DNA from: Mobula hypostoma
Lineage: Eukaryota
NCBI RefSeq assembly: GCF_963921235.1
Contig: NC_086097.1
Location: 42,658,001 to 42,722,000, forward strand
Direction: 5' to 3'
Length of the DNA: 64,000 nucleotides
Shown here piece by piece: positions 95-59,952 of the stretch; position 1 is the stretch's first letter, and every line of letters begins with the position of its first letter. Position numbers and translations under genes: made by a program. The notes below the pieces were generated by a model. That model was not told where the DNA came from. It was given only the letters and a program-made list of their open reading frames with translations, and ran no database searches.

Positions 95-1620
95 CTAGGT
101 CCTTATCCTTACCGACTCCCCCATCCTCCAACCTCTGGCCCTAGTACTTCCTGACTCCCCACCCTCCAACCACTGGTCCTGATCCTTACCAACTCCCCAC
201 CCTCCAATCACTGGCCCTGGTACTTCCTGACTCCCCACCCTCCAATCACTGGTCCTGATCTTTACCAACTCCCCACCCTCCAATCACTGGCCCTGGTACT
301 TCCTGACTCCCCACCACCCCCAACCTCTGGCCCTGGTACTTCCTGACTCCCCACCACCCCCAACCTCTGGCCCTGGTACTTCCTGACTCCTCACCCTCCA
401 ATCACTGGTCCTGATCCTTACCAACTCCCCACCCTCCAATCACTGGCCCTGGTACTTCCTAACTCCCTACCCTCCAATCACTGGTCCTTATCCTTACCGA
501 CTGCCCCATCCTCCAACCTCTGGCCCTGGTACTTCCTGACTCCCCACCCTCCAATCACTGGTCCTGATCCTTACCAATCCCCCACTCTCCAATCACTGGC
601 CCTGGTACTTCCTGACTCCCCACCCCTCAATCACTGGCCCTGGTACTTCCTGACTCCCCACCCTCCAATCGCTGGTCCTGATCCTTACCAATCCCCCACT
701 CTCCATTAATGGCCCTGGTACTTCCTGACTCCCCACCCCTCAATCACTGGCCCTGGTACTTCCTGACTCCCCACCCTCCAATCGCTGGTCCTGATCCTTA
801 CCAATCCCCCACTCTCCATTAATGGCCCTGGTACTTCCTGACTCCCCACCCCTCAATCACTGGCCCTGGTACTTCCTGACTCCCCACCCTCCAATCGCTG
901 GTCCTGATCCTTACCAATCCCCCACTCTCCATTAATGGCCCTGGTACTTCCTGACTCCCCACCCCTCAATCACTGGCCCTGGTACTTCCTGACTCCCTAC
1001 CCTCCCATCACTGGTCCTGATCTTTACCAATCCCCCACTCTCCAATCACTAGCCCTGGTACTTCCTGACTCCCCACCCCCAATCACTGGCCCTGGTACTT
1101 CCTGACTCCCCACCCCTCAATCACTGGCCCTGGTACTTCCTGACTCCCCACCCTCCAATCACTGGTCCTGATCTTTACCAATCCCCCACTCTCCAATCAC
1201 TGGCCCTGGTACTTCCTGACTCCCCACCCCTCAATCACTGGCCCTGGTACTTCCTGACTGCCCATCCTCCAATCACTGGTCCTGATCCTTACCGACACCT
1301 CACTCTCCAATCACTGGCCCTGGTACTTCCCGATTCCCCACCCTCCAATCACTGATCCTGATCCTTACCGACTCCCAATCCTTCCAATCGCTGGCCCTGG
1401 TACTTCCTGACTCCCCACCCTCCAATCACTGGCCCTGGTACTTCCTGACTCCCCACCCTCCAATCACTGGTCCTGGTACTTCCTGACTCCCCACCCTCCA
1501 ATCACTGGCCCTGATTCTTACAGACTCCATACCCCCCGACCACTCGCACTGGTCCTTATGGACTCTCCCCACCTTCCAATCACTGACCCTGATCCTTACA
1601 GATTCTTTCCACCTTAGCTA
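95..1620. repeat. C-rich minisatellite, ~38-bp unit, two interleaved unit variants
   Basis: TCCAATCA recurs at 203 and 241 (period 38). Variant A is CCCTCCAATCACTGGCCCTGGTACTTCCTGACTCCCCA; variant B contains GGTCCTGATCCTTACCAA. The array degenerates at both edges. Confidence 0.95.
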
Positions 1621-5074: not shown

Positions 5075-6100
5075 GATCCTTGACATCCTGACCGACAGAC
5101 CACAATCACTAAGGATATGTAAAGACACTCCTGCCATGATTATTCTAAATAATGGTGCATCCTCAGCCCCTTACTCTACTCCCTGTACACTCATGATCGA
5201 GCAGCAGGGGTTCTGCTCTATCTCCATCTTCAAGTTTGCTGATGATACCTCTGTATTGAGCTGTATCTCAAATGACAATGAGTCAGAATACAGGAAGGAG
5301 ATGGAGAGTTTAGTAACATGGTGTCATGACGATATTGTTTCCCTCAATGTCAGCTAAACAAAAGAGTTGGTCATTGACTTCAGGTGCACATGCTGCTGTT
5401 AACATCAACAGTGCTGAGGTTGAGAGAGTTGAGAGCTTTGTTCCTAAGAGTAAACATCATCAACAGCCAGGCCTGCTCCAAGCACGTAGATGTCATAGCC
5501 AAGAAAACTCACCAATGCCTTTACTTCCTCAGGCAGCTAAAGAAATTCAGCATGTCCCTGTCAAAGCTTACCACTTCTTATCTTAACTGGATGCATAATG
5601 GCTTGGTATGCCAACTGTTCTGCACCTGGCATCAAGGATCTGCAGAAAGCTGTGGACATATCACAGCACATCCTGAAAACCAGCTTCCCCTCCATGGTCT
5701 CTGTCTACTTGCCTCTTCAGTAAAGCAGCCAGTGTAGTCAAAGATCCTGCCCACCCCAGACACTGCTCTTCCCCTCTTCTTCTGAGCAGACAGCACAGAA
5801 GCCTGAAAGAGCACAGCACCCCGCTCAAAGATATTTTCTACCCCGCTGTTATAAGACTATTAAATAATTTCCTAGTTGGTATGTTAGACTCTTGAACTCA
5901 CAATCTACCTCTTTATGATTTTGCACCTTATTGTTTACCTGCACTGCATTTTCTCTGCTGCTGCTGCTACACTTTATTATGCATTGCTATTAATTTGTAC
6001 TACCTCAATGCACTGTGTAATGATTTGATCTGCATGAATGCTAGGCAAGACAGGCTTTTTACTGTATCTCTCCACATGTGACAATAATAAACCAATTCCA
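5075..6100 (+). mobile_element. Rex1/Babar-type LINE, decayed RT C-terminus and 3' UTR
   Basis: ORF pieces SIFKFADDTSVLSCISNDNESEYRKE and KKTHQCLYFLRQLKKF; 3' end ACAATAATAAACCAATTCC. Confidence 0.85.
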
Positions 6101-10851: not shown

Positions 10852-11893
10852 TGTTGTGTATTTAATATTTCAGTAATATTTGAATAATATTGTAAAACAA
10901 AAGAGATGATCATTGACTTCAGGAGATCAAAGGACAGAATACACACCCCCCTCCATTTACATGGAGAGGTAGTGGAAAGTGTGGAAAACCTGAAGTTCCT
11001 TGGAGTTATGTTGTCAAAACAGCTGACATGGACCACCAACACCTCACTGCTTGTAAAAAAGGCACAACAAAGACTCTTCTTCAGAAAGCTGGAACAGGCC
11101 AAACTTCCACAAAAGCTGTTGCTTAACTTCGACAGAAGCACAATTGAAACCATCCTGACCAACAGCGCCACAGTGTGGTATGCCAGCTGCACAGCCGCTG
11201 AGTGACAAGACCTGCATCGCGTGCTGAAGGCAGCCCAGCGAATTGTCAGGATGGAGCTCCCAGGACTGGACACCATCTATTCCAGCAGACTCAGGAGGAA
11301 AGCAATCAGCATAACCAGAGACACCACACACCCCGGCCACTCCCTGTTTGACTCGCAGCCGTCCAGCAAAAGGTTCAGGACACTAAAAGCCAGAACAAGT
11401 AGACTGAGGAACAGCTGTGGCCTCCATCACACCACTCCCACAGAACAATGACTGAAACTGTGAGCACACACATCCACACACAAGCACTCAAATACTTGTA
11501 CTAACAGCACTTTGTGCATTACTGTGAAATTCTGGTGCTGTTGCAACTTAATTTCTGCTACTTATCTATTTAATACTGTTCTTCTATTACTGTCTTGTTT
11601 TTATCTACCACTTTATTTAATTGCCTGAGAGGAAGCCAAACAAAGTTTCATTGTACCTACGTATAATGACGATAAAGATCATTCAATTCAATTCAATTCA
11701 ATAAATATATTGTTTGATGCTGACATAATGTATTGCGGGTTATACGTAAAAGTACGTGAATGGTATACATCATCATGGCAATATGTTATATGCGCTCCTC
11801 ACTAAAAGTAAATACACAGTTTACGTGCATCTCTCAGCCTCCCTTCTTTTTGTTTCCAATTAGTTTTATGCTTTGGAGTTACAAAACATAGCA
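10852..11893 (+). mobile_element. Solo LTR related to the Gypsy LTRs at 51511 and 59953, split by a Rex1 insertion
   Basis: Starts TGTTGTGTATTTAATATTTCAGTAATATTTG, resumes at ~11702 with TAAATATATTGTTTGAT and ends GTTACAAAACATAGCA, matching the ends of 51511-51763. Confidence 0.8.
10896..11702 (+). mobile_element. Rex1-type LINE, 5'-truncated, with (ATTCA)n tail
   Basis: ORF MIIDFRRSK...VESVENLKFLGV...KKAQQRLFF; tail ATTCAATTCAATTCAATTCA at 11681-11700. Confidence 0.85.
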
Positions 11894-12479: not shown

Positions 12480-12815
12480 TTTGTTTCGAGATACAGTGTG
12501 GACCAAACCCATCGAGCCATGCTGCCCAGTAACCCACTGATTTAAATCTAGCCTGAGCACAGGACAATTTACAGTGACCAATTGACCTACCAACCGGTAC
12601 GTCTTTGGAATGTGGGAGAAAACCAGAGAACCCGGAGGAAACCCGCGTGGTCACAGCGAGAATGAACAAACCCCTTACAGATGCAAACACGAGGAAATCT
12701 GCAGATGCTGGAAATCCTTACAGACCTCCTTACAGACCTCAGTTCAGAACAGAACTCCAAACTCCAACACCTTCAACTGTAATAGCTTCACGCTAACCAC
12801 TACACTACCGTGGCA
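12480..12815 (-). mobile_element. V-SINE remnant containing a tiny PLE-tail insertion
   Basis: GGAATGTGGGAGAAAACCAGAGAACCCGGAGGAAACCC (antisense V-domain); tRNA head CGCTAACCACTACACTACCG. Confidence 0.7.
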
Positions 12816-13008
12816 CCCAGGTGGCATTGTTATATGATTACTGAATGGCTCCCTAGTACATTAAGATGGATTCTGGACCTCACAGTTGACCTTGTTATGA
12901 TTTTGCACCTTATTTGTCTACCTGCACCACACTTTCTCTGTAGCTGTTACACTTTATTCTGCATTCTGTTATTGTTTTAACTTGTACTACCTCAGAGCAT
13001 TGTATAAT

Positions 13009-14159
13009 AAATTGATCTGTATGAACAGCATGCAAGACAAGCTTGTTGCAATACATCAGTACATGAGGCAACAATAAACCAATTCCATTTCCAAGGTTCT
13101 GTTATTGATACTGATGCATGTTGCTGTAATTTAACATGAAACAATGTTGGACATGAATCTAGATCTCACCCTAAAGCAATGCAACCTTGAATTAAGCAAA
13201 TTCCCTTTTGGTCACCTGCTGTGTATCTTTCATATTCATATGGAGTGTAAGTCCAATGCCTCCAGAATAACTGAAGAAGGCTTTCAGCTCTGAGCACTGA
13301 ACGCCAGCTTCAGGTTGCATCCTTGCCACAGAGCTGGGAACTGTGGGATGGATGCAGACAGCTAAAAGCGAGGCAAGTCATGAGCTGCCATCCCAACTGC
13401 TCCCTGCTTGATTCACCCTCCATGTTAGGAGCTCTCAGTTATGGCACTTCGGCAAACCTTGGAACTGTGGGAGGACATGTGGCTGGGCTTCCACAGCACC
13501 TTTCCAGATCCTTTGAGCTCAGGCAGAAACCTGGAGTCTCGTCTTCTGCCCCAGCACTCTGGCAACACGCGATTTCTAAATAAAAACAGAAAATGCTGGA
13601 AATACTCAAAACTTTTAACAATTAAAATGACCTTTTAGTTCATCTGCCAATCACTTTAAATATTTGTCCTCTGTTTTTGACCAAGCCACATGTCCTCCCA
13701 CAGTTCCAAGGTTTGCCGAGGTGCCATAACTGAGAGCTCCTAACATGGAGGGTGAATCAAGCAGGGAGCAGTTGGGATGGCAGCTCATGACTTGCCTCGC
13801 TTTTAGCTGTCTGCATCCATCCCACAGTTCCCAGCTCTGTGGCAAGGATGCAACCTGAAGCTGGCGTTCAGTGCTCAGAGCTGAAAGCCTTCTTCAGTTA
13901 TTCTGGAGGCATTGGACTTACACTCCATATGAATATGAAAGATACACAGCAGGTGACCAAAAGGGAATTTGCTTAATTCAAGGTTGCATTGCTTTAGGGT
14001 GAGATCTAGATTCATGTCCAACATTGTTTCATGTTAAATTACAGCAACATGCATCAGTATCAATAACAGAACCTTGGAAATGGAATTGGTTTATTGTTGC
14101 CTCATGTACTGATGTATCGCAACAAGCTTGTCTTGCATGCTGTTCATACAGATCAATTT
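13009..14159. repeat. Long inverted repeat: 476-bp arms (13009-13484 and 13684-14159), 199-bp spacer
   Basis: The arms are colinear reverse complements with no indel and two mismatches found by eye. The ORF track gives the same peptide start at 13323(+) and 13845(-). Confidence 0.97.
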
Positions 14160-14659
14160 TGACCAATAGGAATTGTACATCTCTATCTCCAACTACTTTG
14201 TTGATACCCCTCAGTGAAAACCTTCAGTCATCTCCTTTCAAGCTTCTCTGCTCCATTGAGAACTATCTCAGCTTCTTCCTGTATCACAGTCCTCTCTTCA
14301 CAGGAACTATTATTCTGCATCTTCTCCAGACCTTCCTGTGCTCCCTAAGGATGGCTGGGTAGCGCTGGATGAGGAACCCTTCCTCCTCCTCCTCCTCCTA
14401 CTCCATCACCTCTTTCTCATTATTTCTCCTCCTCCTTTCAGCAAGGTTGAGCTCTCTAAATCCTCAAAGCTCCCTCAGCTCAGGGAACTCTTCCTCACCA
14501 TCTTCCTCGTTCTTTGAGCATCGTGTTTTGCTCTACCTTCCTTCCGTTCAATCTCTGAAGGCAAGATACTCCAGCATTCAGCACAATAAACCCTACAGAT
14601 ATTTGAATCAGTTTTTTCTTCAGTTAGAATGTACTAACTGTAGCAAAAGGCTGAAAAAA

Positions 14660-27426: not shown

Positions 27427-30400
27427 CAGAGGTGGCGCTGAGGTGGTGCTATAGCACCAGCAGAAATTACAATAGCACTACCGTAGCACCACCAAGAAAT
27501 TAACTGAAATTTGACATACAAATTGCAGCTGCTTTGCTTTCTCTGTATAGTTTTGAATACAGCTTGTTTCTCCGGTTGATCTAGTGAAACAGCACCCATG
27601 CAACAATAAAGTTATAAACTCTGCGCTGGTCTAAAGTCAGATCCACTCTACACTTCTGCCTATTCATTCGTTGTCAATGTCTTGCCGTTGCTGTCCTCAG
27701 ATCAGTTAAGCTGATCACTTCAGGTGGTGATGTCACTCACTCTCACTCACGCAAGAGATTGATAGTATGCATACACTGTACAGGATCCAGGTGCAGATCC
27801 ATGGTCTCGTGAGACTAACAGATACCACGCACACACACATTGTGCTTTTACAAGCTAGCGTCGGCCTGCCACGTGCATTATTTTGGCCGGCGTGAAAAAT
27901 GGATCGATTTTTAGTGAGAAAATGACCTCATCCAGAGGAATCAGTGGTGTCTCAGCCTGAGTCTGTCTTAATTGAAAGTGACATGCAGAAAGAAGTAAGT
28001 GGGGATGAGGACGACAGCGGTTTATTGAAGGAGTATGAGGGTGAAGTAGAGGAACAAGAAATGGAGCAGGATTCGGAGGAGAACATGAATGAAGCTGCTC
28101 TCAGTGCGAGTGGGAATGCTGTTAGCGATGTTAGCCAGCAGCCTGAGGAAGGACCCCGTCGGCCAGCATTGAAAAAGTACCCTTCGCTGTTCACAACAGT
28201 TTGGCAATCAGCAAAGGAGTTTTATTCGTGGCTGGTTTGACCTGTACTCGTGGCTGGAACATTCAATCGCAAAAGATGCTACATTCTGCTTCGCATGCAG
28301 GCATTTCCTGTGTGGAGGCCATGGGTTCCATTCTGAGTCTACCTTCACTGTCACCGGTTACCGCAACTGGCAGAAAGCTACAACAGCTTTCAAAACCCAC
28401 CATGTACGTGCAGCTTATAAGCTATGGAGGCATAGGCCGAATTCAGATTGAGAAAATAAGATGGTTCAAGATTGGGAAATATGCTTGATAAAGGACATGC
28501 AAAGATTGTCCAAGGAAATTGTGAGTATATGAGAGCAGTGGTTGAGTCTCTACGCTATACTGCGTGCCAAGACATTGTCCAGCGAGGACACCGGGAGGAT
28601 GATGGATCTGGCAGTAGGGGAAACTTTGTTGAGATTCTCAGTGTAATTGGGCAATTTGATAAGACTGTAGCTAAAAAAATAGAGGACAATCCTGGAAATG
28701 CAAAAAACATCCATCACGATATCCAAAATGAAATTATGGGTATTATGGTCAGACGTCAGATAAGTGCAGAAATCAAGGAGGCTGGACATTTTTCCATCAT
28801 GGTGGATGAAAGTAAAGACTTGAGTAAAAAGGAGCAAATATCAGTGGTGGTGCGATATTTGAATAACGAAGCATGCTTGAAGAATTCTTGCACTTCACTC
28901 CAGCAGAAGCATTAAAAGCGTTGAACAGACACTCGCCCAGTGTGTTATTGATAAGAACGCGTGTATAGGTCAGTGTTATGACGGGGCAGCAGCGATGTCC
29001 AGGTGCAATAACGGGGTAGAAGAGAGGTTCAGGAAAGCAGTCCCGCAGGCATTATATATACACTGCCATGCTCACAGACTGAACCTTGTTTTAGTGGATG
29101 TTGTGAGCAATGTACAACAAGCGGGCGGGTGAGTTTTTTGAAACTGTGCAGCTGCTTTACAACTTCTTTTCAAACTCTGTTGCCCACGATCTTTTCATGA
29201 AGAAACAGAGAGAACTGGAATCAACTGCACAACCCGTGGAGTTGAAGAAATTGTCAGATACACGCTGGGCATGGTAGTATACAGCTTTGTGGGCTATAAG
29301 GAAATCACTCCCTGCCATTCTAGCTACACTACAGGATATTATGGGTCAACCAAATGCGCAGAGAAAAACGGAGGCCAGAGCTGTAAATGGACTGATTGAC
29401 GAACAGTTTGCTTTACTTCTCACTCTGTTTGAGGCTTTATTCCGAGTCACCAAGTTCATGTCAGACCAGCTACAATCTCCCAGTTTGGATCTTTCATCTG
29501 CTGTGGACTTGGCTCAGTCTGTTATCGATGCACTCTCAGCAAAACGGGGAGAGGAATCATGGAGTGAAATTCAGGCAAGAGCTAGGGATCTGTGCGTCAA
29601 GGCTGGTATACAGAGCAGACCACATGAAAGGAGACAGGCCCAGCCACACTGCCGCCTACATGATTTTGTTGTTGAGGCCCAAACTGAACACACACCTGTC
29701 ACATCCTCTGATGACCTTCGCAAGCACTGTTTCTATCCGGTTATAGACAGACTTCTGACTGAAATGAAAAGACGGTTCTCAGTTGAGACTGGGGGTGTTC
29801 TGACTGGAGTCTCAGCATTGAGTCTCAAACACAAGTTCTTCCTAGACAAGAATTGTCTTTGGCCAATGGCCCAATACTATGGAGTGACTGAAGTGAACCT
29901 GACTGCAGAGCTACATCAGGTTCGGCATCTGCTGGAAACAAAACAAAAGCAAAGACAGACAGTGAATGACAGTGGAATTTCTAGCTCTAATGAAACCCTA
30001 CCACGATGCATTTATAGATTTATACAAACTAATCTGCATATCACTGACTCTACCTGTGACATCTGCCTCATGCAAACGGAGTTTTTCTTGCCTCAGACGC
30101 CTCAAGAACTACCTAAGGAATAGCAGCGGCGATGCTCGGAACAGCAGCTTGGCCCTGTTGGCCATAAACAGCCGCAGGGCACTTGACATCCAGGAAATCA
30201 ATGATGCTTTCACCACCAATCACAACAACAGACAGATTGTGCTTCTCTGAAAACATCAAAGGTGAGTGCAGTTGATTTTTTTAAAGTTTGGTCCAAGATT
30301 AATGCTGATTATTATTATTATTTTGTGGTGGATACCCCATAGTCCTTATGTTTCCTGCAGATCCTAAAATATTACATTTACTGCTATTAAGCCTACTGGT

Positions 30401-32971: not shown

Positions 32972-35087
32972 TACTTTATACTTTATTGTCACCAAGCAAT
33001 TGGTACTAGAATGTACAATCATCACAGCGATATTTGATTCTGCGCTTCACACTCCCTGGATTACAAATATTAAATATTAAAAATATTAAAAATAGTTAAA
33101 ATTAGTAAATATTAAAAAATTAAATTATAAATCATAAATAGAAAATAGAAAAATGGGAAGTAAGGTAGTGCAAAAAAAACCGAGAGGCAGGTCCAGAGGG
33201 TATTTGGAGGGTACGGCCCAGATCCGGGTCAGGATCCGTTCTTATCACAGTTGGAAAGATGCTGTTCCCAAATCTGGCCGTACGAGTCTTCAAGCTCCTG
33301 GACCTTCTCCCAGAGGGAAGAGGGACTAAAAGTCTGTTGGCTGGGTGGGTCGTGTCCTTGATTATCCTGGCAGCACTGCTCCAACAGCGGGCGGTGTAAA
33401 GTGAGTCCACAGATGGAAGATTGGTTTGTGTGATGTGCTGTGCCGTGTTCACAAACTTCTGTAGCTTCTTTCGGTCTTGGACAGGACAACTTCCATATCA
33501 GGTTTTGATGCACCCTAGAAGAATGCTTTCTACGGTGCATCTATAAAAATTAGTGAGAGTTTTAGGGGACAGGCCAAATTTCTTTAGTTTTCTCAGGAAG
33601 TAAAGGTGCTGGTGGGCCTTCTTGGCAGTGAACTCTGTTTGGCTGGACCAAGTCAGGTCATTTGTGATATTGACCCCGAGGAACTTAAAGCTTTTGACCT
33701 GTTCCACTTGCACACCACCAATGTAAATTGGGTCGTGCAGTCCACTACTCCTTCTGAAGTCAATAACCAATTCCTTTGTCTTGCTGACGTTGAGGGATAG
33801 ATTATTGTCTTTGCACCATGCCACCAGGTTCTTAATTTCCTCTCTGTACTCAAACTCATCATTACCCGAGATACAGCCTACAATAGTTGTGTCATCAGCA
33901 AACTTATATATTGAGTTTGATGGAAACTTGGCTACACAATCATGGGTGTACAGTGAGTACAGCAGGGGGCTGAGTACACAGCCTTGTGGGGCACCGGTGC
34001 TCAGAGTGATTGTAGAGGAGAGCTTGTCCCCTATTTTTACAGCCTGGGTCCTGACTGTGAGGAAGTTGAAGATCCAGCTGCAGATCTGAGTGCTAAGGCC
34101 CAGGTTCCGGAGCTTAGGAATCAGTTTATTTGGAATGATGGTATTAAAGGCAGAGCTGTAGTCAATGAAAAGGAGCCTTACGTATGCGTCTTTATTTTCC
34201 AGGTGTTCTAAGGAGGAACGTAGGGCCAGAGAGATGGCATCTGTTGTTGACCTGTTGCTCCGGTAGGCGAATTGCAAAGCGTCGAGGTTGACCGGTAGGC
34301 TGTGGTTGATGTGTGTCGTAACCAATCTCTCGAAGCACTTCATAGCAATTGATGTCAGAGCCACAGGTCGATAGTCATTCAGGCATGCCACCTTGCTCTT
34401 CTTCAGCACTGGGATTATTGTTGCCTTCTTAATACATGAGGGGATCTTAGACTGAAGCAAGGAGCAGTTGAAGATATCAGCAAAAACTCCAGCTAGCTCG
34501 CTTGCACAGGCCCGGAGAACCCGTCCTGGGATGCCATCTGAGCCCGTCACCTTCCTTGGATTTATCTTCAGGAAGGCCCTTCTAACGTCCTCCTCGGTGA
34601 TGATGAATCTCGATGCCACCAGGTCTGGTTCACCCGGAGGGAGCGGCACGCTCCTCTTCTGTTCAAATCTTGTATAGAATACGTTAAGTTCGTCAGGAAG
34701 AGAAGCGTCACAGTTATTGATATTCCCAGCCTTTTCTTTGTGCCCAGTGAACTCATTTAGACCCTGCCATAGTCTACTGGCATCCCTCTGGTTAGCCTGG
34801 GCTTCCAACTTGGCTCAATATTGCCTCTTGGCACCCTTAATGGCTTTCCGGAGTTCACGCCTGGATTCCGCGTAGCGACTGGTATCCCCGGACCTAAAAG
34901 CCACAGCTCTAGCCTCTAAAAGGGACTTGACCTCATAATTCATCCAAGGTTTCCGGTTAGGGAATACCCGGATCATCTTGCAAGACACACAGGCCTCCAT
35001 GATTTCCAAATAAAGTCCGTGACAGCTGAGGCATACTCATCGAGGTCGGCTGTCGAGTCCTTGAATACTGAATACTTGAATACTACT
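32972..35087 (-). mobile_element. Young 5'-truncated Rex1/Babar LINE nested in an older Rex1
   Basis: (ACTTTAT)n antisense tail at ~32972; GGCTTTA at 32965-32971 and 35088-35094 as a candidate TSD. Confidence 0.88.
33498..34808 (-). pseudogene. Reverse transcriptase domain of Rex1 ORF2 (436-aa open stretch bounded by stops)
   Basis: [56 protein letters not shown]. Confidence 0.92.
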
Positions 35088-36435: not shown

Positions 36436-37354
36436 ACCACAAAATGGATTAGGGAATTCAGAAGAAACATCTTTGCATGGAGTGTGGTGAGAATGTGAAG
36501 GTTGTTGCCACAGGGAAACCCCATGTATTTAAAGGGGAGATGGACAAGCATACGAGGTGGATGGAATAAGGAATTAGGGAATTCCACTGAGGAACAATAG
36601 GAGGAAGCTTGAACAGGGCATAAATTTGGACAGCTTGCATCAAATAGCCTGCTTCTCTGCTGTAGAACCCAACTAATCCTTTTTTGACCTGGCAATCTAG
36701 CTTATTATGACCCTGCAACTTAATGATGCTTGCACTGCGCTTTCTCTGTAGCTGTAACACTTTATTCTGCATTCTCTCGCTGCTTTACCTTGTACTATTT
36801 CAATGCACTCTGTAATGAATTGATCACATGAACAGTATGCAAGGCACGCTTTTCATTGTAGTGCAGCCCATGTTACAATGATAGTAAATCAATTCAAATA
36901 ATAGGCAAATTATTTTAATTACACAAGATCCAAACTGTTGTTAAAATAGTTTATTTCATTTAGAACACTAAACTGTATTGACTTGTGACCAACAGAGTAT
37001 TATGGGCTGCGAGAAGGCTACACATTGATGTACAGATGAACACGAATCAGGAGCTGAAGCAGGCCACTTGGCCCCTCAAACCTACCCCACTGTTTAATGA
37101 GATACAGCTAATCTGACTGTATCCTCAGCTCCACATTCCAACCAGCTCCCTCCTTGAAATAAGCATCTACCTCCTTCTGCCACAGGAAAACATTCACATT
37201 TTCTGGTTCCACCACGCTTTGATGAAGAGAGATCCAAGAACAGTCAACCCTCTGAAAGGAAAACCTCAGGCTCATCGCAGTTTTAAGTGAGTGGCTCATA
37301 TTTCTAAACAGTGACCTGCTGTACGTGGCAAGACAATGGCAAAAATTGGACGTC

Positions 37355-45790: not shown

Positions 45791-46221
45791 CTTGCTCACA
45801 GATATCCTTTTCCTTCCATCCACTCTTCCCCATTTCTGCAACTTAAAACACACTTGATTTCTCATGGTAATAATTCTAATGAGGTACATTCACCCGAATA
45901 ATTAAGACAATTTCTCTTAATTAAAATCAAAACTTTTAGTTCTTGCTGATTTTATTTTAACTTCCAAGCACTGCATGCATTGTTTTCCTAATGGCAACGG
46001 TGTCAATGTAATCAAAGTTCATTTCATTGGTTCTTTATGAGTTAGATCATGAGGAAAGTTTTTTTAAAGTTTTGCTTGTACTTGCATCAATGTGGGTTAA
46101 GAGGCAATTTGATTGCAGTTTGTAGGATTTTAAAGCAAACCAATAGACCATAAGACCAGCAACGCACATCAAAGTAGCTGGTGAACGCAACAGGCCAGGC
46201 AGCATCTCCAGGAAGAGGTAC

Positions 46222-46257
46222 AGTCGACGTTTCAGGCTGAGACCCTTCGTCAGGACT
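46222..46257 (-). ncRNA. Minimal type I hammerhead ribozyme motif, core intact
   Basis: Minus strand reads AGTC CTGACGA A GGGT CTCA GCCT GAAA CGTC GACT. Confidence 0.78.
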
Positions 46258-47330
46258 AACTGAAGGAAGAGTTAGTAAGATTTGAAAGTGGGAGGGGGAG
46301 GGGGAGATCCAAAATGATAGGAGAAGACAGGAGGGGGAGGGATGGAGCCAAGAGCTGGACACGTGATTGGCAAAGGGAATACGAGAAGATCATGGGACAG
46401 GAGATCCGGGGAGAAAGTTGGGGGGGGGGAACCCAGAGGATGGGCAAGGGGTATAGTCAGAGGGAGAAAAAGGAGAGTGAGAAAAAGAAAGAATGTGTGC
46501 GTAAAAATAAATAACGGATGGGGTACGAGGGGGAAGTGGGGCATTAGCAGAAGTTAGAGAAGTCAATGTTCATGCCATCAGGTTGGAGGCTACCCAGACG
46601 GAATATAAGGTGTTGTTCCTCTAACCTGAGTGTGGCTTCATCTTTACAGTAGAGGAGGCCGTGGATAGATGTGTCAGAATGGGAATGGGGTGTGGAATTA
46701 AAATGTGTGGCCACCGGGAGATCCTGCTTTCTCTGGCAGACAGAGCGTAGATGTTCAGCAAAACGATCTCCCAGTCTGCGTCGGGTCTCGCCAATATATA
46801 AAAGGCCACATCGGGAGCACCGGACACTCTGTCCACCAGAGAAAGCAGGATCTCCCAGTGGCCACACATTTTAATTCCACATCCCATTCCCATTCTGACA
46901 TGTCTATCCACGGCCTCCTCTACTGTAAAGATGAAGCCACACTCAGGTTGGAGGAACAACATCTTATATTCTGTCTGGGTAGCCTCCAACCTGATGGCAT
47001 GAACATTGACTTCTCTAACTTCCGCTAATGCCCCACCTCCCCCTCGTACCCCATCCGTTATTTATTTTTATACACACATTCTTTCTCTCTCTCTCTCCTT
47101 TTTCTCCCTCTGTCCCTCTGACTATACCCCCTGCCCATCCTCTGGGCTCCCCCCCACCCCCGCCCTTGTCTTTCTCCCCGGACCTCCTGTCCCATGATCC
47201 TCTCATATCCCCTTTGCCAATCACCTGTCCAGCTCTCGGCTCCATCTCTCCCCCTCCTGTCTTCTCCTATCATTTGGATCTCCCCCTCCCCCTCTCACTT
47301 TCAAATCTCTTACTAACTCTTCCTTCAGTT

Positions 47331-47366
47331 AGTCCTGACGAAGGGTCTCGGCGTGAAATGTCGACT
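47331..47366 (+). ncRNA. Minimal hammerhead motif, stem II damaged
   Basis: AGTC CTGACGA A GGGT CTCG GCGT GAAA TGTC GACT. Confidence 0.65.
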
Positions 47367-47464
47367 GTACCTCCTCCTAGAGATGCTGCCTGGCCTGCTG
47401 CGTTCACCAGCAACTTTGATGTGTGTTGCTTGAATTTCCAGCATCTGCAGAATTCCTGTTGTGT

Positions 47465-48315
47465 GACCAGAAGACCATAAAATTTTGGAGCAGAATTATG
47501 CCATTTGGCCCATCAAGTCTTCTCCACCATTTCATTTCATCATGGCTGATCCAAATTTCCTCTCAGCCCCAATCTCTTGCCTTCTTCCCATATCCCTTCA
47601 TGCACTGACCAATCAGAATCTATCACTTTCTGCCTTAAATATACATAAAGACTTGACCTCCACAGCTGCCTGTGGCAAAGAATTTCACAGATTCACCTCT
47701 CTCTGGCTAACAAAAAATTCGTCCTCGTCTCCATTCTAAAAGGATGCACCTCTAATCTGAGGCTGTGTCCTTTGGTCTTAGGCTCTCCCACCATAGAAAA
47801 CACCCTCTCCACATCCACTCTATCGAGACCTTTCACCATTCAACAGGTTTCAATGAGGTCACCTCTCATTCTTCTGAATTCTAGTGAATACAGTCCCAGA
47901 GCCAACAAGCTCTCTTCATATGTGAAGCTCCTTTGAACTCTCCAGTTTTAGCATATTCTTTCTAAGAGAAGGGGACCAAAACTGCTCACAATACTTGAAG
48001 TGAGGCCTTTCCAGTACTTTATAAACTATCAATATTACATATTGCTTTTATATTCTAGTCCTCTTGAAATGACTGCTATCATTGCATTTGCCTTCCTCAC
48101 CACAGACTTAACCTGCAAATTAACCTTTAGAGAATTCTGTACAAGGACTCCCAAGTCCCTTTACATGTTAATTCTTTTTTTGTATTTTCTCTCTATTTAG
48201 AAAATAGTCAACTGTTTCATTTCTTCTACCAAAGTGCATGACCATACACTTCCCAACACTGTAATCTATCTGCCACTTCTTTACCCATTATCATGTTCTA
48301 TTTAAGTCCTTCAGT
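47465..48315 (-). mobile_element. CR1 3' fragment
   Basis: Same subfamily as ~43990-44610 and 55205-57085 (GGAGCAGAATT..., GCTGCCTGTGGCAAAGAATT). Confidence 0.85.
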
Positions 48316-57519: not shown

Positions 57520-59920
57520 TGAATTTCTGGAGGAAAACACTTCAGTAAAGTGGATTTAGCTGAGGCCTACCTGCAGATGGAAATGGAAGAAGAGTCCAAT
57601 GTTTTTCTCACCATGTTTTTCTTACTTCAGTGGTTGGTAAGTTGATGGAGAAGATCCTGAGAGGCAGGATTTATGAACATTTGGAGAAGCATAATATGAT
57701 TAGGAATAGTCAGTATGGCTTTGTCAAAGGCAGTCATGCCTTACAAGCCTGATTGAATTTTTTGAGGATGTGACTAAACACATTGATGATGGTAGAGCAG
57801 TAGGTGTAGTGTATATGGATTTCAGCAAGGCATTCGATAAGGTACCACATGCAAGGCTTATTGAGAAAGTAAGGAGGCATGGGATATAAGGGGACATTGC
57901 TCTGTGGATCGATAACTGGCTTGCCTACAGAAGGCAAAGTGTGGTTGTAGATGGGTCATATTCTGCATGGAGGTCGGTGACCAGTGGAGTGCCTCAGGGA
58001 TCTGTTCCGGGACCCTTACTCTTCGTGATTTTTATAAGTGACCTGAATGAGGAAGTGGAGGGATGGTTTAGTAAATTTGCTGATGACACAAAGGTTGGGG
58101 GTGTTGTGGATAGTGTGGAGGACTGTCAGAGGTTACAGCGGGACATAGATAGGATGCAAAACTGGGCTGAGAAGTGGCAGATGGAGTTCAACCCAGATAA
58201 GTATGAGGTGGTTCATTTTGGTAGGTCAGATATGATGGCAGAATATAGCATTAATGGTAAGACTCTTAGCAGTGTGGAGGATCAGGGGGATCTTGGGGTC
58301 TGAGTCCATAGGACACTCAAAGCTGCTACGTAGGTTGACTCTGTGGTTAAGAAGGCATATGGTGCATTGGCCTTCATCAGTTGTGGGATTGAGTTTAGGA
58401 GCTGAGAGGTAATGTTGCAGCTATATAGGACCCTGGTCAGACCCCACTTGGAGTACTGTGCTCAATTCTGGTCACCTCACTACAGGAAGGGTGCAGAGGA
58501 GATTTACAAGGATGTTGCCTGGATTGGGGAGCATGCCTTATGAGAATAGCTTGAGTGAACTCGGCCTTTTTTCCTTGGAGCGATGAGAGGTGACCTGATA
58601 GACGTGTATAAGATGATGAGAGGTATTGATCGTGTGGATAGTCAGAGGCTTTTTCCCTGGGCTGAAATGGCTAGCACGAGAAGGCATAGTTTTAAGGTGC
58701 TTGGAAGTAGGTACAGAGGAGGTGTCAGGGGTAAGTTTTTTACGCAGAGAGGGGTGAGTGTGTGGAATGGGCTGCCAGCGGCCCTGGTGGAGCTGGAAAT
58801 GATAGGGTCTTGATAAAAATGATAAAAGACTCCTGGATAGATACATGGAGCTTAGAAAAATAGAGGGCTATGGGTAAGCCTATGTAGTTCTAAGGTAAGG
58901 ACATTTTCGGCACAGCTTTGTGGGCCGAAGGTCCTGTATTATGCTGTAGGTTTTCTATGTTTCTATGTTTTTTACACTCACAAGGGGCTTCATAGCTATA
59001 ATAGTCTTATTTTTGGAGTAGCATCTACACCTACACTCTGGCAGAAAGCTATGGACCAGGTACTGCAAGGCAGCCCAGGCTCTCAGTGCTATCTGGATGA
59101 CATCATTGTTACCAATAAGGATGACAAGGGACATCTTCAAAATATCAGGATAGTGTTAAAAAGATTAGAAGATTATGGGCTCAGAGCATGACACAATAAG
59201 TGTGAATTCTTTAAACCAAGCACCACTTACTGTGGCCACACCATTGGCACACAAGAATAATACAAGTGTGCTGATAAAATTCAAGTAGTGGTGGATGCCC
59301 CGAGGCCAAAGGACTCGTCAAAGTTGCAGTCCTTTTAAGGATTTGTCTATTACTATAACAGGTTCCTGTCAAACCTGGCTACTGTGCTCTACCCCTGGAA
59401 CACATTACTACAGATTGGGAAGAAATGGCAATGGAAAATGCAGTATGGGGTGGCTTTCCAAAAGACGAAGGAAATGGTGATGATAGACACTATACTTCCA
59501 CAATTTAATCCACACGGTCCAGTGAAGCTCCCCTGTGACACCTTGCCTTATGGTACAGGTGCTGTTGTGTCACATGTTATGAGTGATGGAAGTGAATACC
59601 CCATGGCCTTTGCATCACACTCCTTTACCGCTGCAGGGAAAAAATTGCACAAAGATTGACAGAGAAGCCTTACACTGCTTTGCAGTGTAAAATGTTTCAA
59701 CCAGTGAGAAAGAGTTCACCCTCATCACTGATCATCAACCATTGGTATCGATCCTCAATCCACAGAAGGGTGTCACACGAATATCAGCAGCACAAATGCA
59801 GAGATGAGCTCTGTTCCTTAGGGGGCACAATTACAAGACCAAATTCAAGAGGACAACTAATCATGGAATTGGTGATGGATTGTTCCATTTACCTTTGGAA
59901 AAGAAAATACCTGAACATTT
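57520..59920 (+). pseudogene. Gypsy pol remnant (RT and RNase H), split by a CR1 at 57620-58966
   Basis: GGKHFSKVDLAEAYLQMEM (57527-57590) continues at ~58972 with THKGL..FGVAS..MDQVLQG..CYLDDIIV, then LPCDTLPYGTGAVVSH and FTLITDHQPL. Confidence 0.85.
57620..58966 (+). mobile_element. CR1, 5'-truncated, TTTCTATG-tail subfamily
   Basis: VTSGVPQGSVPGPLLFVIFISDL..SKFADDTKVGG; tail TTTCTATGTTTCTATG. Confidence 0.9.
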
Positions 59921-59952
59921 GAGTTGGAGTTAATAACTAAACATAGGAGGAA

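What the first reader, a model, noticed from the sequence alone, without database searches (positions are those of the whole stretch)
13009..14166. Recent 476-bp inverted templated duplication flanked by a 10-bp direct repeat
Seen: 13684-14159 is the reverse complement of 13009-13484 (two mismatches by eye, no indels), 199 bp away. The right arm is flanked by TTTTGACCAA at 13675-13684 and 14157-14166, overlapping the arm by 1 and 3 nt. The left arm is continuous with a LINE 3' UTR remnant upstream, whereas the right arm interrupts an old CR1-like remnant, so the right arm is the copy. Most of the copied DNA matches no repeat family I recognise, and there is no poly-A or TIR. Inference: a double template switch (FoSTeS/MMBIR or polymerase-theta type), or local copying at a staggered retroelement endonuclease cut. 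If transcribed, it would fold into a ~476-bp dsRNA hairpin, a possible Dicer or ADAR substrate.
Basis: partly seen in the sequence, partly recalled or inferred. Interest (0 to 1): 0.72.

Follow-up and report, generated by a model that had tools for sequence, protein, structure and literature searches.

The report
Recent inverted copy of neighbouring DNA
A 476-base stretch was recently copied backwards into a site about 200 bases away in this one lineage, leaving a 10-base duplication at the landing site; this is a known kind of DNA copying or repair accident, and no function is shown.

Summary
Contigs from runs of two related organisms (2 of 4 runs laid; one uninformative, one the window's organism) skip 482 bases here, keep one copy of the 10-mer, and join the left arm to the spacer. 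So the right arm is a lineage-specific insertion with a target duplication. Both of its junctions appear in contigs of the window's organism, and it is not a multi-copy element. The anatomy is the '3-2-4-1' template-switch type (11% of great-ape events) at the size of human inverted duplications (<1 kb within 5 kb). Best reading (0.72): DNA-templated copying by host replication or break repair. A retroelement-made cut or RNA template stays open (0.2). No transcription, host gene or small RNA was shown. The scan noted similar template-switch copies on other genomes. Real, well polarised, ordinary.

The parts
13009..13484 (+). Donor (ancestral) arm, 476 bp; first ~80 bp are the end of an old LINE-3'-like repeat, the rest has no match elsewhere in the window
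   Evidence: joined to the spacer in contigs of organisms B and C (joint 13485/13684, opposite strands)
12828..13087 (+). Older dispersed repeat that crosses the donor's outer boundary, so that boundary is not an element end
   Evidence: 74% to 5847-6100 and 71% to 36681-36895 across 13008/13009; the 5847 copy follows a frame with the same PF09004 hit as the RVT_1 frame 33501-34814
13485..13683 (.). 199-bp spacer between the arms, ancestral; holds a short high-copy repeat at about 13578-13608
13675..13684 (+). Target 10-mer, first copy; last base is a 1-nt microhomology with the donor end
   Evidence: single copy in organisms B and C (joint 13674-14157, both=10)
13684..14159 (-). Inverted copy of the donor; inserted part 13685-14156 (472 bp), net gain 482 bp with the target duplication
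   Evidence: skip of 482 in X5 and X9; X1 records 1 and 8 with 0 differences
14157..14166 (+). Target 10-mer, second copy; first 3 nt are a microhomology with the donor start
14167..14345 (.). Right part of a much decayed LINE-like remnant whose left part is about 13610-13674; interrupted by the insertion (weak support; 'CR1' recalled)

Best explanation
A single, lineage-specific, DNA-templated switch-and-return event, with no function shown. SHOWN: the ancestral locus was donor, spacer, one 10-mer, right flank; the derived locus has an added reverse-complement copy of the donor between two 10-mers. INFERRED: a 3' end at the end of the 10-mer (13684) left its template, primed on the opposite-sense sequence 200 bp back (13484; 1 nt paired, 3 of the last 4), was extended for about 475 nt to 13009, and rejoined the target through 3 nt of microhomology 10 bp behind its starting point, which duplicated the 10-mer (order 3-2-4-1). 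The same product follows from a stalled fork or from repair of a staggered break with 3' overhangs by strand invasion or fold-back; the mirror route primed from the other strand is equivalent. Host polymerases and a DNA template are the simplest agents. Because of the microhomologies, the truly duplicated target is 6 to 10 bp.
For: Empty allele with one 10-mer in 2 of 2 informative related organisms (sides 95 and 93 letters). Donor-spacer junction present in both. Perfect local template, no untemplated letters, microhomology at both junctions (chance 0.43 for 1 or more and 0.056 for 3 or more). The event type 'inverted and direct repeat' (4-1-3-2/3-2-4-1) is 0.11 of 1503 great-ape events (PMC7954356 S1 Table) and such events look like one large insertion. 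Human inverted duplications are under 1 kb, within 5 kb, and not typically tied to retrotransposition (PMC4617611). Paired nicks with 3' overhangs give target duplications, sometimes with in-cis templated inserts (PMC5730883). No poly(A), no terminal inverted repeats, neither nick in an L1-type T-run context. Recent: arms differ by 0.42% against 1.9% between organisms A and B (P=0.005 if as old as that split).
Against: The copied tract is 476 bp against a maximum of 128 bp in the great-ape gold set, and 190-675 bp from the break against the 30-bp SD-MMEJ criterion. The priming site is poor: 277 of 960 upstream sites match the terminal base and 21 match 3 or more, so microhomology does not explain the choice of site. 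A clean target duplication is also the mark of retroelement endonucleases. The passages and supplement search of PMC4617611 gave no junction detail, so I did not see whether human inverted duplications carry target duplications. X1 has no contig over 13485-13562, so the donor-spacer junction was not seen in the window organism's own run.
Confidence: 0.72

Rival explanations
1. Retroelement machinery made it: a LINE or Penelope-type endonuclease made the staggered cut, and the reverse transcriptase (or host repair) copied neighbouring DNA or a nascent + strand transcript instead of element RNA. On this reading the insert resembles a 5'-truncated 3' transduction, since it starts inside the 3' end of a LINE-like remnant and runs on into its flank.
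For: Target duplication of up to 10 bp; 3-nt microhomology at the end that would be the 5' junction, as at truncated L1 insertions. L1 expression yields inverted duplications at the target site and templated genomic DNA insertions (PMC11702581 passages). The window holds RT frames, and unchecked scan notes report target-duplicated Penelope and RTE insertions in this genome.
Against: No poly(A) or tail at the would-be primed end; no element sequence inserted apart from the local copy; neither nick is in an L1-type context (other clades' sites not tested); the LINE-like remnant is old (74% to its closest window copy); full-length L1 insertions have 12-18 bp duplications; no intron loss between donor and copy.
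Confidence: 0.2
2. The copy is older within the lineage than it looks and is kept near-identical by gene conversion or by selection on a long RNA hairpin (endo-siRNA or ADAR substrate).
For: A transcript through both arms would fold into one long stem (-1004.9 kcal/mol for 12980-14200, no shuffles at this length). Both arm mismatches are transitions that would give a G-U pair on one strand. Both arms share at least 5 changes against organisms B and C, which conversion could also give.
Against: The empty allele in B and C bounds the age to after the A-B split. Shared changes are fully explained by copying late on the branch (last 17-25%, 95% interval 2-74%). No Rfam family in the window; no host-gene domain in the 111 non-repeat frames of 45 aa or more between 3 and 26 kb.
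Confidence: 0.04
3. The arm, or the arm-spacer-arm unit, is a transposable element (MITE, foldback or local hop).
For: A target duplication of 10 bp and local inverted placement are compatible with some DNA transposons (recalled).
Against: No terminal inverted repeat (best 5 nt) and no target duplication around the donor (best 4 nt); the donor boundary cuts through an older repeat; 13680-14069 is covered at a summed contig depth under 10 in every run laid while true repeats pile up to thousands; half of the unit is ancestral.
Confidence: 0.02
4. Assembly artefact: a fold-back chimera, or two haplotypes (donor in place; donor moved and inverted) merged into one sequence.
For: No listed piece spans the whole stretch in any run; X1 lacks the donor-spacer junction; X1's outer-junction contig has 27 arm letters before the second 10-mer, under the tool's 31-letter rule; X1 may be the assembly's own sample.
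Against: X1 record 1 (13582-14110, 0 differences) bridges the spacer-copy junction with about 100 letters on the short side, and record 8 (14130-14650, 0 differences) carries the outer junction. Arm contig depth is 9.57 against 4.2 for the flank in X1, but 2.51/2.84 in X5 and 6.86/6.14 in X9 (weak: the tool says depth is no copy number). A chimera would not be expected to duplicate exactly the 10-mer at which relatives are empty.
Confidence: 0.02

Closest known systems
Four-point template switch, type 3-2-4-1 / 4-1-3-2 'inverted and direct repeat' (Loytynoja and Goldman, PMC5453318; Walker et al., PMC7954356)
   Same: Reverse-complement copy of nearby ancestral DNA, return point before the departure point, hence a direct repeat around the insert; appears as one insertion; direction fixed with outgroups.
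   Different: Copied tract 476 bp against median 12, maximum 128 bp in the gold-standard set; those studies searched short windows, and are of apes.
Human small inverted duplications ('inv-dup', Sudmant et al., PMC4617611)
   Same: Under 1 kb, inserted in inverted orientation within 5 kb of the source, no retrotransposition marks.
   Different: Target duplications are not described in the passages or the supplement search that I saw; here polarised between species, not among individuals.
Repair of paired nicks with 3' overhangs (Schimmel et al., PMC5730883, PMC8355091) and snap-back SD-MMEJ (PMC5728401)
   Same: Duplication of the sequence between the nicks, sometimes with an in-cis templated insert; primer and return microhomologies; inverted repeat as product.
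   Different: Template starts 200 bp from the break and is 476 bp long; the SD-MMEJ criterion is 30 bp, and PMC5730883 classes inserts as local within 250 bp.
Local rearrangements at L1 ORF2p cuts (PMC11702581)
   Same: Target duplication, microhomology, inverted duplication or templated genomic DNA at the target.
   Different: No poly(A), no element cDNA, no L1-type cut site here.
Small inverted triplications, DUP/INV/DUP (PMC13334657, abstract only)
   Same: Replication-error class of similar scale that leaves a hairpin-forming inverted copy.
   Different: Here there are two copies with a 199-bp single-copy spacer and only 10 bp duplicated directly; no triplication.

Membership tests
Four-point template switch 3-2-4-1 | Insert is the reverse complement of nearby ancestral sequence | tested here: met
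   474 of 476; donor ancestral
Four-point template switch 3-2-4-1 | Point 4 precedes point 1, giving a direct repeat around the insert | tested here: met
   order 13009 < 13484 < 13675 < 13684; one 10-mer in B and C, two here
Four-point template switch 3-2-4-1 | Within the size range of the published short-range set (up to 128 bp) | tested here: not met
   476 bp against 128 bp; a limit of that data set, not of the model
Four-point template switch 3-2-4-1 | Arose at a replication fork | not testable with these tools
   fork and break-repair routes give the same sequence
Small inverted duplication (inv-dup) | Under 1 kb, inverted, within 5 kb of the source copy | tested here: met
   476 bp, 199 bp apart
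Small inverted duplication (inv-dup) | Allele without the copy exists | tested here: met
   empty site in X5 and X9; polymorphism within organism A not testable from one sample
Snap-back SD-MMEJ / polymerase theta templated insertion | Primer repeat and return microhomology of at least 1 bp each | tested here: met
   1 and 3 nt; criterion; weak against chance
Snap-back SD-MMEJ / polymerase theta templated insertion | Template within 30 bp of the join | tested here: not met
   200-675 bp away
Snap-back SD-MMEJ / polymerase theta templated insertion | Depends on polymerase theta | not testable with these tools
   needs genetics
LINE TPRT insertion / 3' transduction | Target-site duplication | tested here: met
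   6-10 bp
LINE TPRT insertion / 3' transduction | Poly(A) or element tail at the primed end | tested here: not met
   none at either end
LINE TPRT insertion / 3' transduction | L1-type T-rich cut site at the priming nick | tested here: not met
   both candidate 3' ends end in A; consensus; sites of other clades not tested
LINE TPRT insertion / 3' transduction | RNA intermediate (intron loss) | tested here: inconclusive
   copy is colinear with donor; no intron known in the donor
MITE / foldback transposon | Terminal inverted repeats on the inserted piece; element-like ends | tested here: not met
   best 5 nt; donor end cuts an older repeat
MITE / foldback transposon | Many dispersed copies | tested here: not met
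   no pile-up over 13680-14069 in 4 of 4 runs; whole genome not held
Inverted triplication (DUP-TRP/INV-DUP, SIT) | Three copies, the middle one inverted | tested here: not met
   two copies only
Hairpin-RNA / endo-siRNA locus | Long near-perfect stem possible | tested here: met
   predicted fold
Hairpin-RNA / endo-siRNA locus | Transcribed through both arms; small RNAs or A-to-I edits | not tested
   no RNA run was laid; the one read-laying run went to DNA runs

The most novel reading that the evidence does not exclude
The insert is a tail-less 'cis-transduction': a retroelement endonuclease cut just downstream of an old LINE 3' end, and a reverse transcriptase or repair polymerase copied the local nascent transcript (or DNA) into the cut, in the germ line. 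If many target-duplicated inverted copies in this genome share a retroelement cut-site signature, this would be a hidden route by which retroelements write long, perfect hairpin loci of host sequence without leaving any of their own DNA.
Probability: 0.12. Interest if true: 0.6.

Novelty: new member of a known kind. Interest (0 to 1): 0.24.

Why it matters
As a single event it matters little: it is a clean, outgroup-polarised example of a described mutation class, in repeat-rich DNA with no gene found nearby. Its use is as a template for a survey: target-duplicated inverted copies of several hundred bases are easy to call between these close genomes, and their junctions could separate fork switching, staggered-break repair and retroelement cuts as the source of small inverted duplications, whose mechanism PMC4617611 leaves open. 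If a host transcript crosses it, it would be a ready-made 476-bp dsRNA.

Tried and rejected
No whole genome is held, so the arm was not searched genome-wide. Run search: 24 runs listed, 20 hold part of the stretch; no RNA holder listed, which says nothing about expression. I laid 4 of the 24; X10 (organism D) gave no orthologous cover and is uninformative; X1 has no cover at 13485-13562, which proves nothing by itself. The laid stretch held only the right arm, so the outer flank of the donor was not tested in relatives; 33 rows of the difference table were hidden, so the ancestral state of the two arm mismatches is unresolved. BLASTN and TBLASTX of the modelled empty site against the window found no hit spanning the junction other than itself; only permissive alignment and a profile did, weakly. 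Rfam: 0 matches in the window. Pfam: 5 of 122 stop-free frames hit, all read as transposon remnants; none of the 7 frames in the donor or spacer; frames under 45 aa were not scanned, so short exons are not excluded. The bacterial promoter/terminator scan is irrelevant to this organism and was not used. Literature searches listed no paper devoted to several-hundred-base germline inverted copies with a target duplication; most subscription papers are not in the library, and bioRxiv supplements were closed, so this is no proof of absence. PMC8078821 and 10.1101/2021.12.20.472354 passages did not match this anatomy. Scan look-ups by place nearby and by sequence returned nothing. Rejected: MITE/foldback, inverted triplication, canonical L1 insertion, SD-MMEJ in the strict sense.

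Full report
Observation. The arms 13009-13484 and 13684-14159 are complementary at 474 of 476 positions with no indel, 199 bp apart; the 10-mer TTTTGACCAA occurs only at 13675-13684 and 14157-14166 in the window, overlapping the right arm by 1 and 3 nt (repeat finder). It is the only self-match of the window at 96% or more over 60 bp or more. The window is eukaryotic and repeat-rich (38% self-matching; RT and transposase-like frames). Unchecked scan notes on the same genome call it a ray.

Empty allele. No whole genome is held, so I used public runs. The search listed 24 runs, 20 holding part of 12700-14500. I laid 4 of them on 13485-14650, which holds the spacer, the right arm and the right flank. 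X5 (organism B) and X9 (organism C) each have one contig that goes from 13674 to 14157, skipping 482 bases, with 10 letters fitting either side and 95 and 93 letters on the shorter side: the empty site with a single 10-mer. Each also has one contig that runs through the arm and then changes strand into the spacer at 13485: the left arm in its present place. So the left arm is ancestral and the right arm is a 472-bp insertion plus a 10-bp target duplication. X10 (organism D) had no orthologous cover. In X1, the window's own organism by word share (0.83) and zero differences, record 1 covers 13582-14110 and so bridges the spacer-copy junction; record 8 covers 14130-14650, with 27 arm letters before the second 10-mer, short of the tool's 31-letter rule. 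X1 shows no empty joint, but contigs drop rare variants; it has no cover at 13485-13562; no piece spans the whole stretch; and it may be the assembly's own sample. Arm-to-flank contig depth is 9.57/4.2 in X1, 2.51/2.84 in X5 and 6.86/6.14 in X9, as expected for two copies against one, though the tool warns that depth is no copy number. Over 13680-14069 no run shows the pile-up (thousands) seen at true repeats.

Age. From the four orthologous pieces per run, A differs from B at 23 of 1181 letters (1.9%) and from C at 57 of 1143 (5.0%); the arms differ at 0.42%; 2 or fewer differences has P=0.005 if the copy were as old as the A-B split. B and C agree against both arms of A at three listed substitutions (13970, 13974, 14015) and at a 20-bp and a 9-bp extra piece; taking C as outgroup, these changes happened in A before the copying. 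That puts the event in about the last 17-25% of A's branch (95% interval 2-74%). Thirty-three rows of the table were hidden, so the shared count is a lower bound and the ancestral state of the two mismatches is unresolved. Gene conversion could make the copy look younger but not older than the split.

Anatomy. The donor's outer boundary cuts an older repeat that continues across it (12828-13087 against 5847-6100, 74%), so it is no element end. The insert has no terminal inverted repeat (best 5 nt) and the donor no target duplication (best 4 nt); no poly(A) is present. The target lies in a decayed LINE-like remnant: alignment across the modelled empty junction is weak but colinear (z 4.7 and 4.8, 0 of 200 shuffles, best 2 of 16 copy/strand pairs; profile E 0.009; BLAST alone found nothing). 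The name CR1 is recalled. Both junctions are free of untemplated letters, with 1 and 3 nt of microhomology; by chance 0.43 and 0.056. The priming site is unremarkable: 277 of 960 upstream sites match the terminal base, 21 match three or more. Neither candidate 3' end is T-rich as at L1 cuts.

Mechanism. Projected on the ancestral sequence the switch points fall in the order 3 (13009), 2 (13484), 4 (13675), 1 (13684). Synthesis left the template at the end of the 10-mer, copied about 475 nt of the opposite sense starting 200 bp back, and resumed 10 bp behind its starting point. A stalled fork does this; so does a staggered break with 3' overhangs in which one end invades or folds back, is extended, and anneals to the other overhang by its last 3 nt. 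The product is shown; the route is inferred and the two cannot be separated. I give host DNA-templated copying 0.72; a retroelement-made cut or RNA template 0.2; conversion or a selected hairpin 0.04; transposon 0.02; artefact 0.02. The retroelement rival has one real lead: the copy begins inside the 3' end of a LINE-like remnant and runs into its flank, like a truncated 3' transduction, but the tail and cut site are missing and the remnant is old.

Comparison with what is known. [quoted passage not shown] PMC5453318 (passages) defines the model and did not observe this order. PMC4617611 (passages; supplement searched) found 54% of its characterised inversions (229 sites) to be inverted duplications, nearly all under 1 kb and within 5 kb of the source, not typically tied to retrotransposition; I saw no junction detail. 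PMC5730883 (passages) and PMC8355091 (abstract) show that paired nicks give duplications of the overhang, sometimes with in-cis templated inserts. PMC5728401 (passages) sets a 30-bp range for SD-MMEJ, which is not met. PMC11702581 (passages) reports inverted duplications and templated genomic DNA at L1 cuts. PMC13334657 (abstract) describes small inverted triplications, a different copy pattern. So it works like a 3-2-4-1 switch and belongs, by structure, to the small inverted duplications; it is not a MITE, a canonical LINE insertion, a triplication or strict SD-MMEJ. My eight searches listed no paper devoted to this size together with a target duplication, which is a small gap, not a new class.

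Function. A transcript through both arms would form one long stem (-1004.9 kcal/mol), which follows from any such duplication. No Rfam family lies in the window; Pfam hit 5 of 122 stop-free frames, all read as transposon remnants; short exons were not excluded; no RNA run was laid. The hairpin idea is therefore untested, not refuted.

Verdict. Interest 0.24. The most novel open reading, a tail-less retroelement-triggered local copy, has probability 0.12 and would deserve 0.6. Earlier scan notes reached template-switch readings for shorter hairpins in other genomes; they are unchecked and did not set this score.

Noticed in passing
window 46158-47465: Two 87%-alike copies of one repeat family sit in inverted orientation, nearly abutting at about 46824, with a 9-bp direct repeat at 46145 and 47472 outside them. 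The family looks Penelope-like (label recalled and from note e1-7808845; Pfam named nothing for two such frames). The 9-mer may be a target duplication or part of a neighbouring LINE tail.
   Followed up: partly
window 13876-13887 and 13937 (and the matching places in the left arm): Organisms B and C carry 20 and 9 extra bases here. The 20-bp piece begins with the same 12 letters that follow it, so the window's lineage probably lost it by a repeat-guided deletion before the duplication.
   Followed up: partly
window 98-1599: Minisatellite of a 38-bp unit, about 39 copies, with a higher-order 113-bp period.
   Followed up: no
window 27900-30250: Fragments of a transposase-like frame (DUF4371 hit at 28460-28912, E 8e-14; long frame 29278-30120), probably a decayed hAT-type DNA transposon (label recalled).
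   Followed up: no
window 33501-34814 (-): 438-aa stop-free reverse transcriptase frame (RVT_1, E 8e-33), the best preserved LINE piece seen; related 3' remnants at 5378-5734 and 10888-11202.
   Followed up: no
window 14350-14560 (-): Purine-rich stretch that reads as an acidic, interrupted protein-like sequence on the minus strand; no Pfam hit for the overlapping frames tested.
   Followed up: no
window 58856-59922: Broken LTR-retrotransposon-like pol remnant (RT_RNaseH_2 hit at 59339-59656).
   Followed up: no
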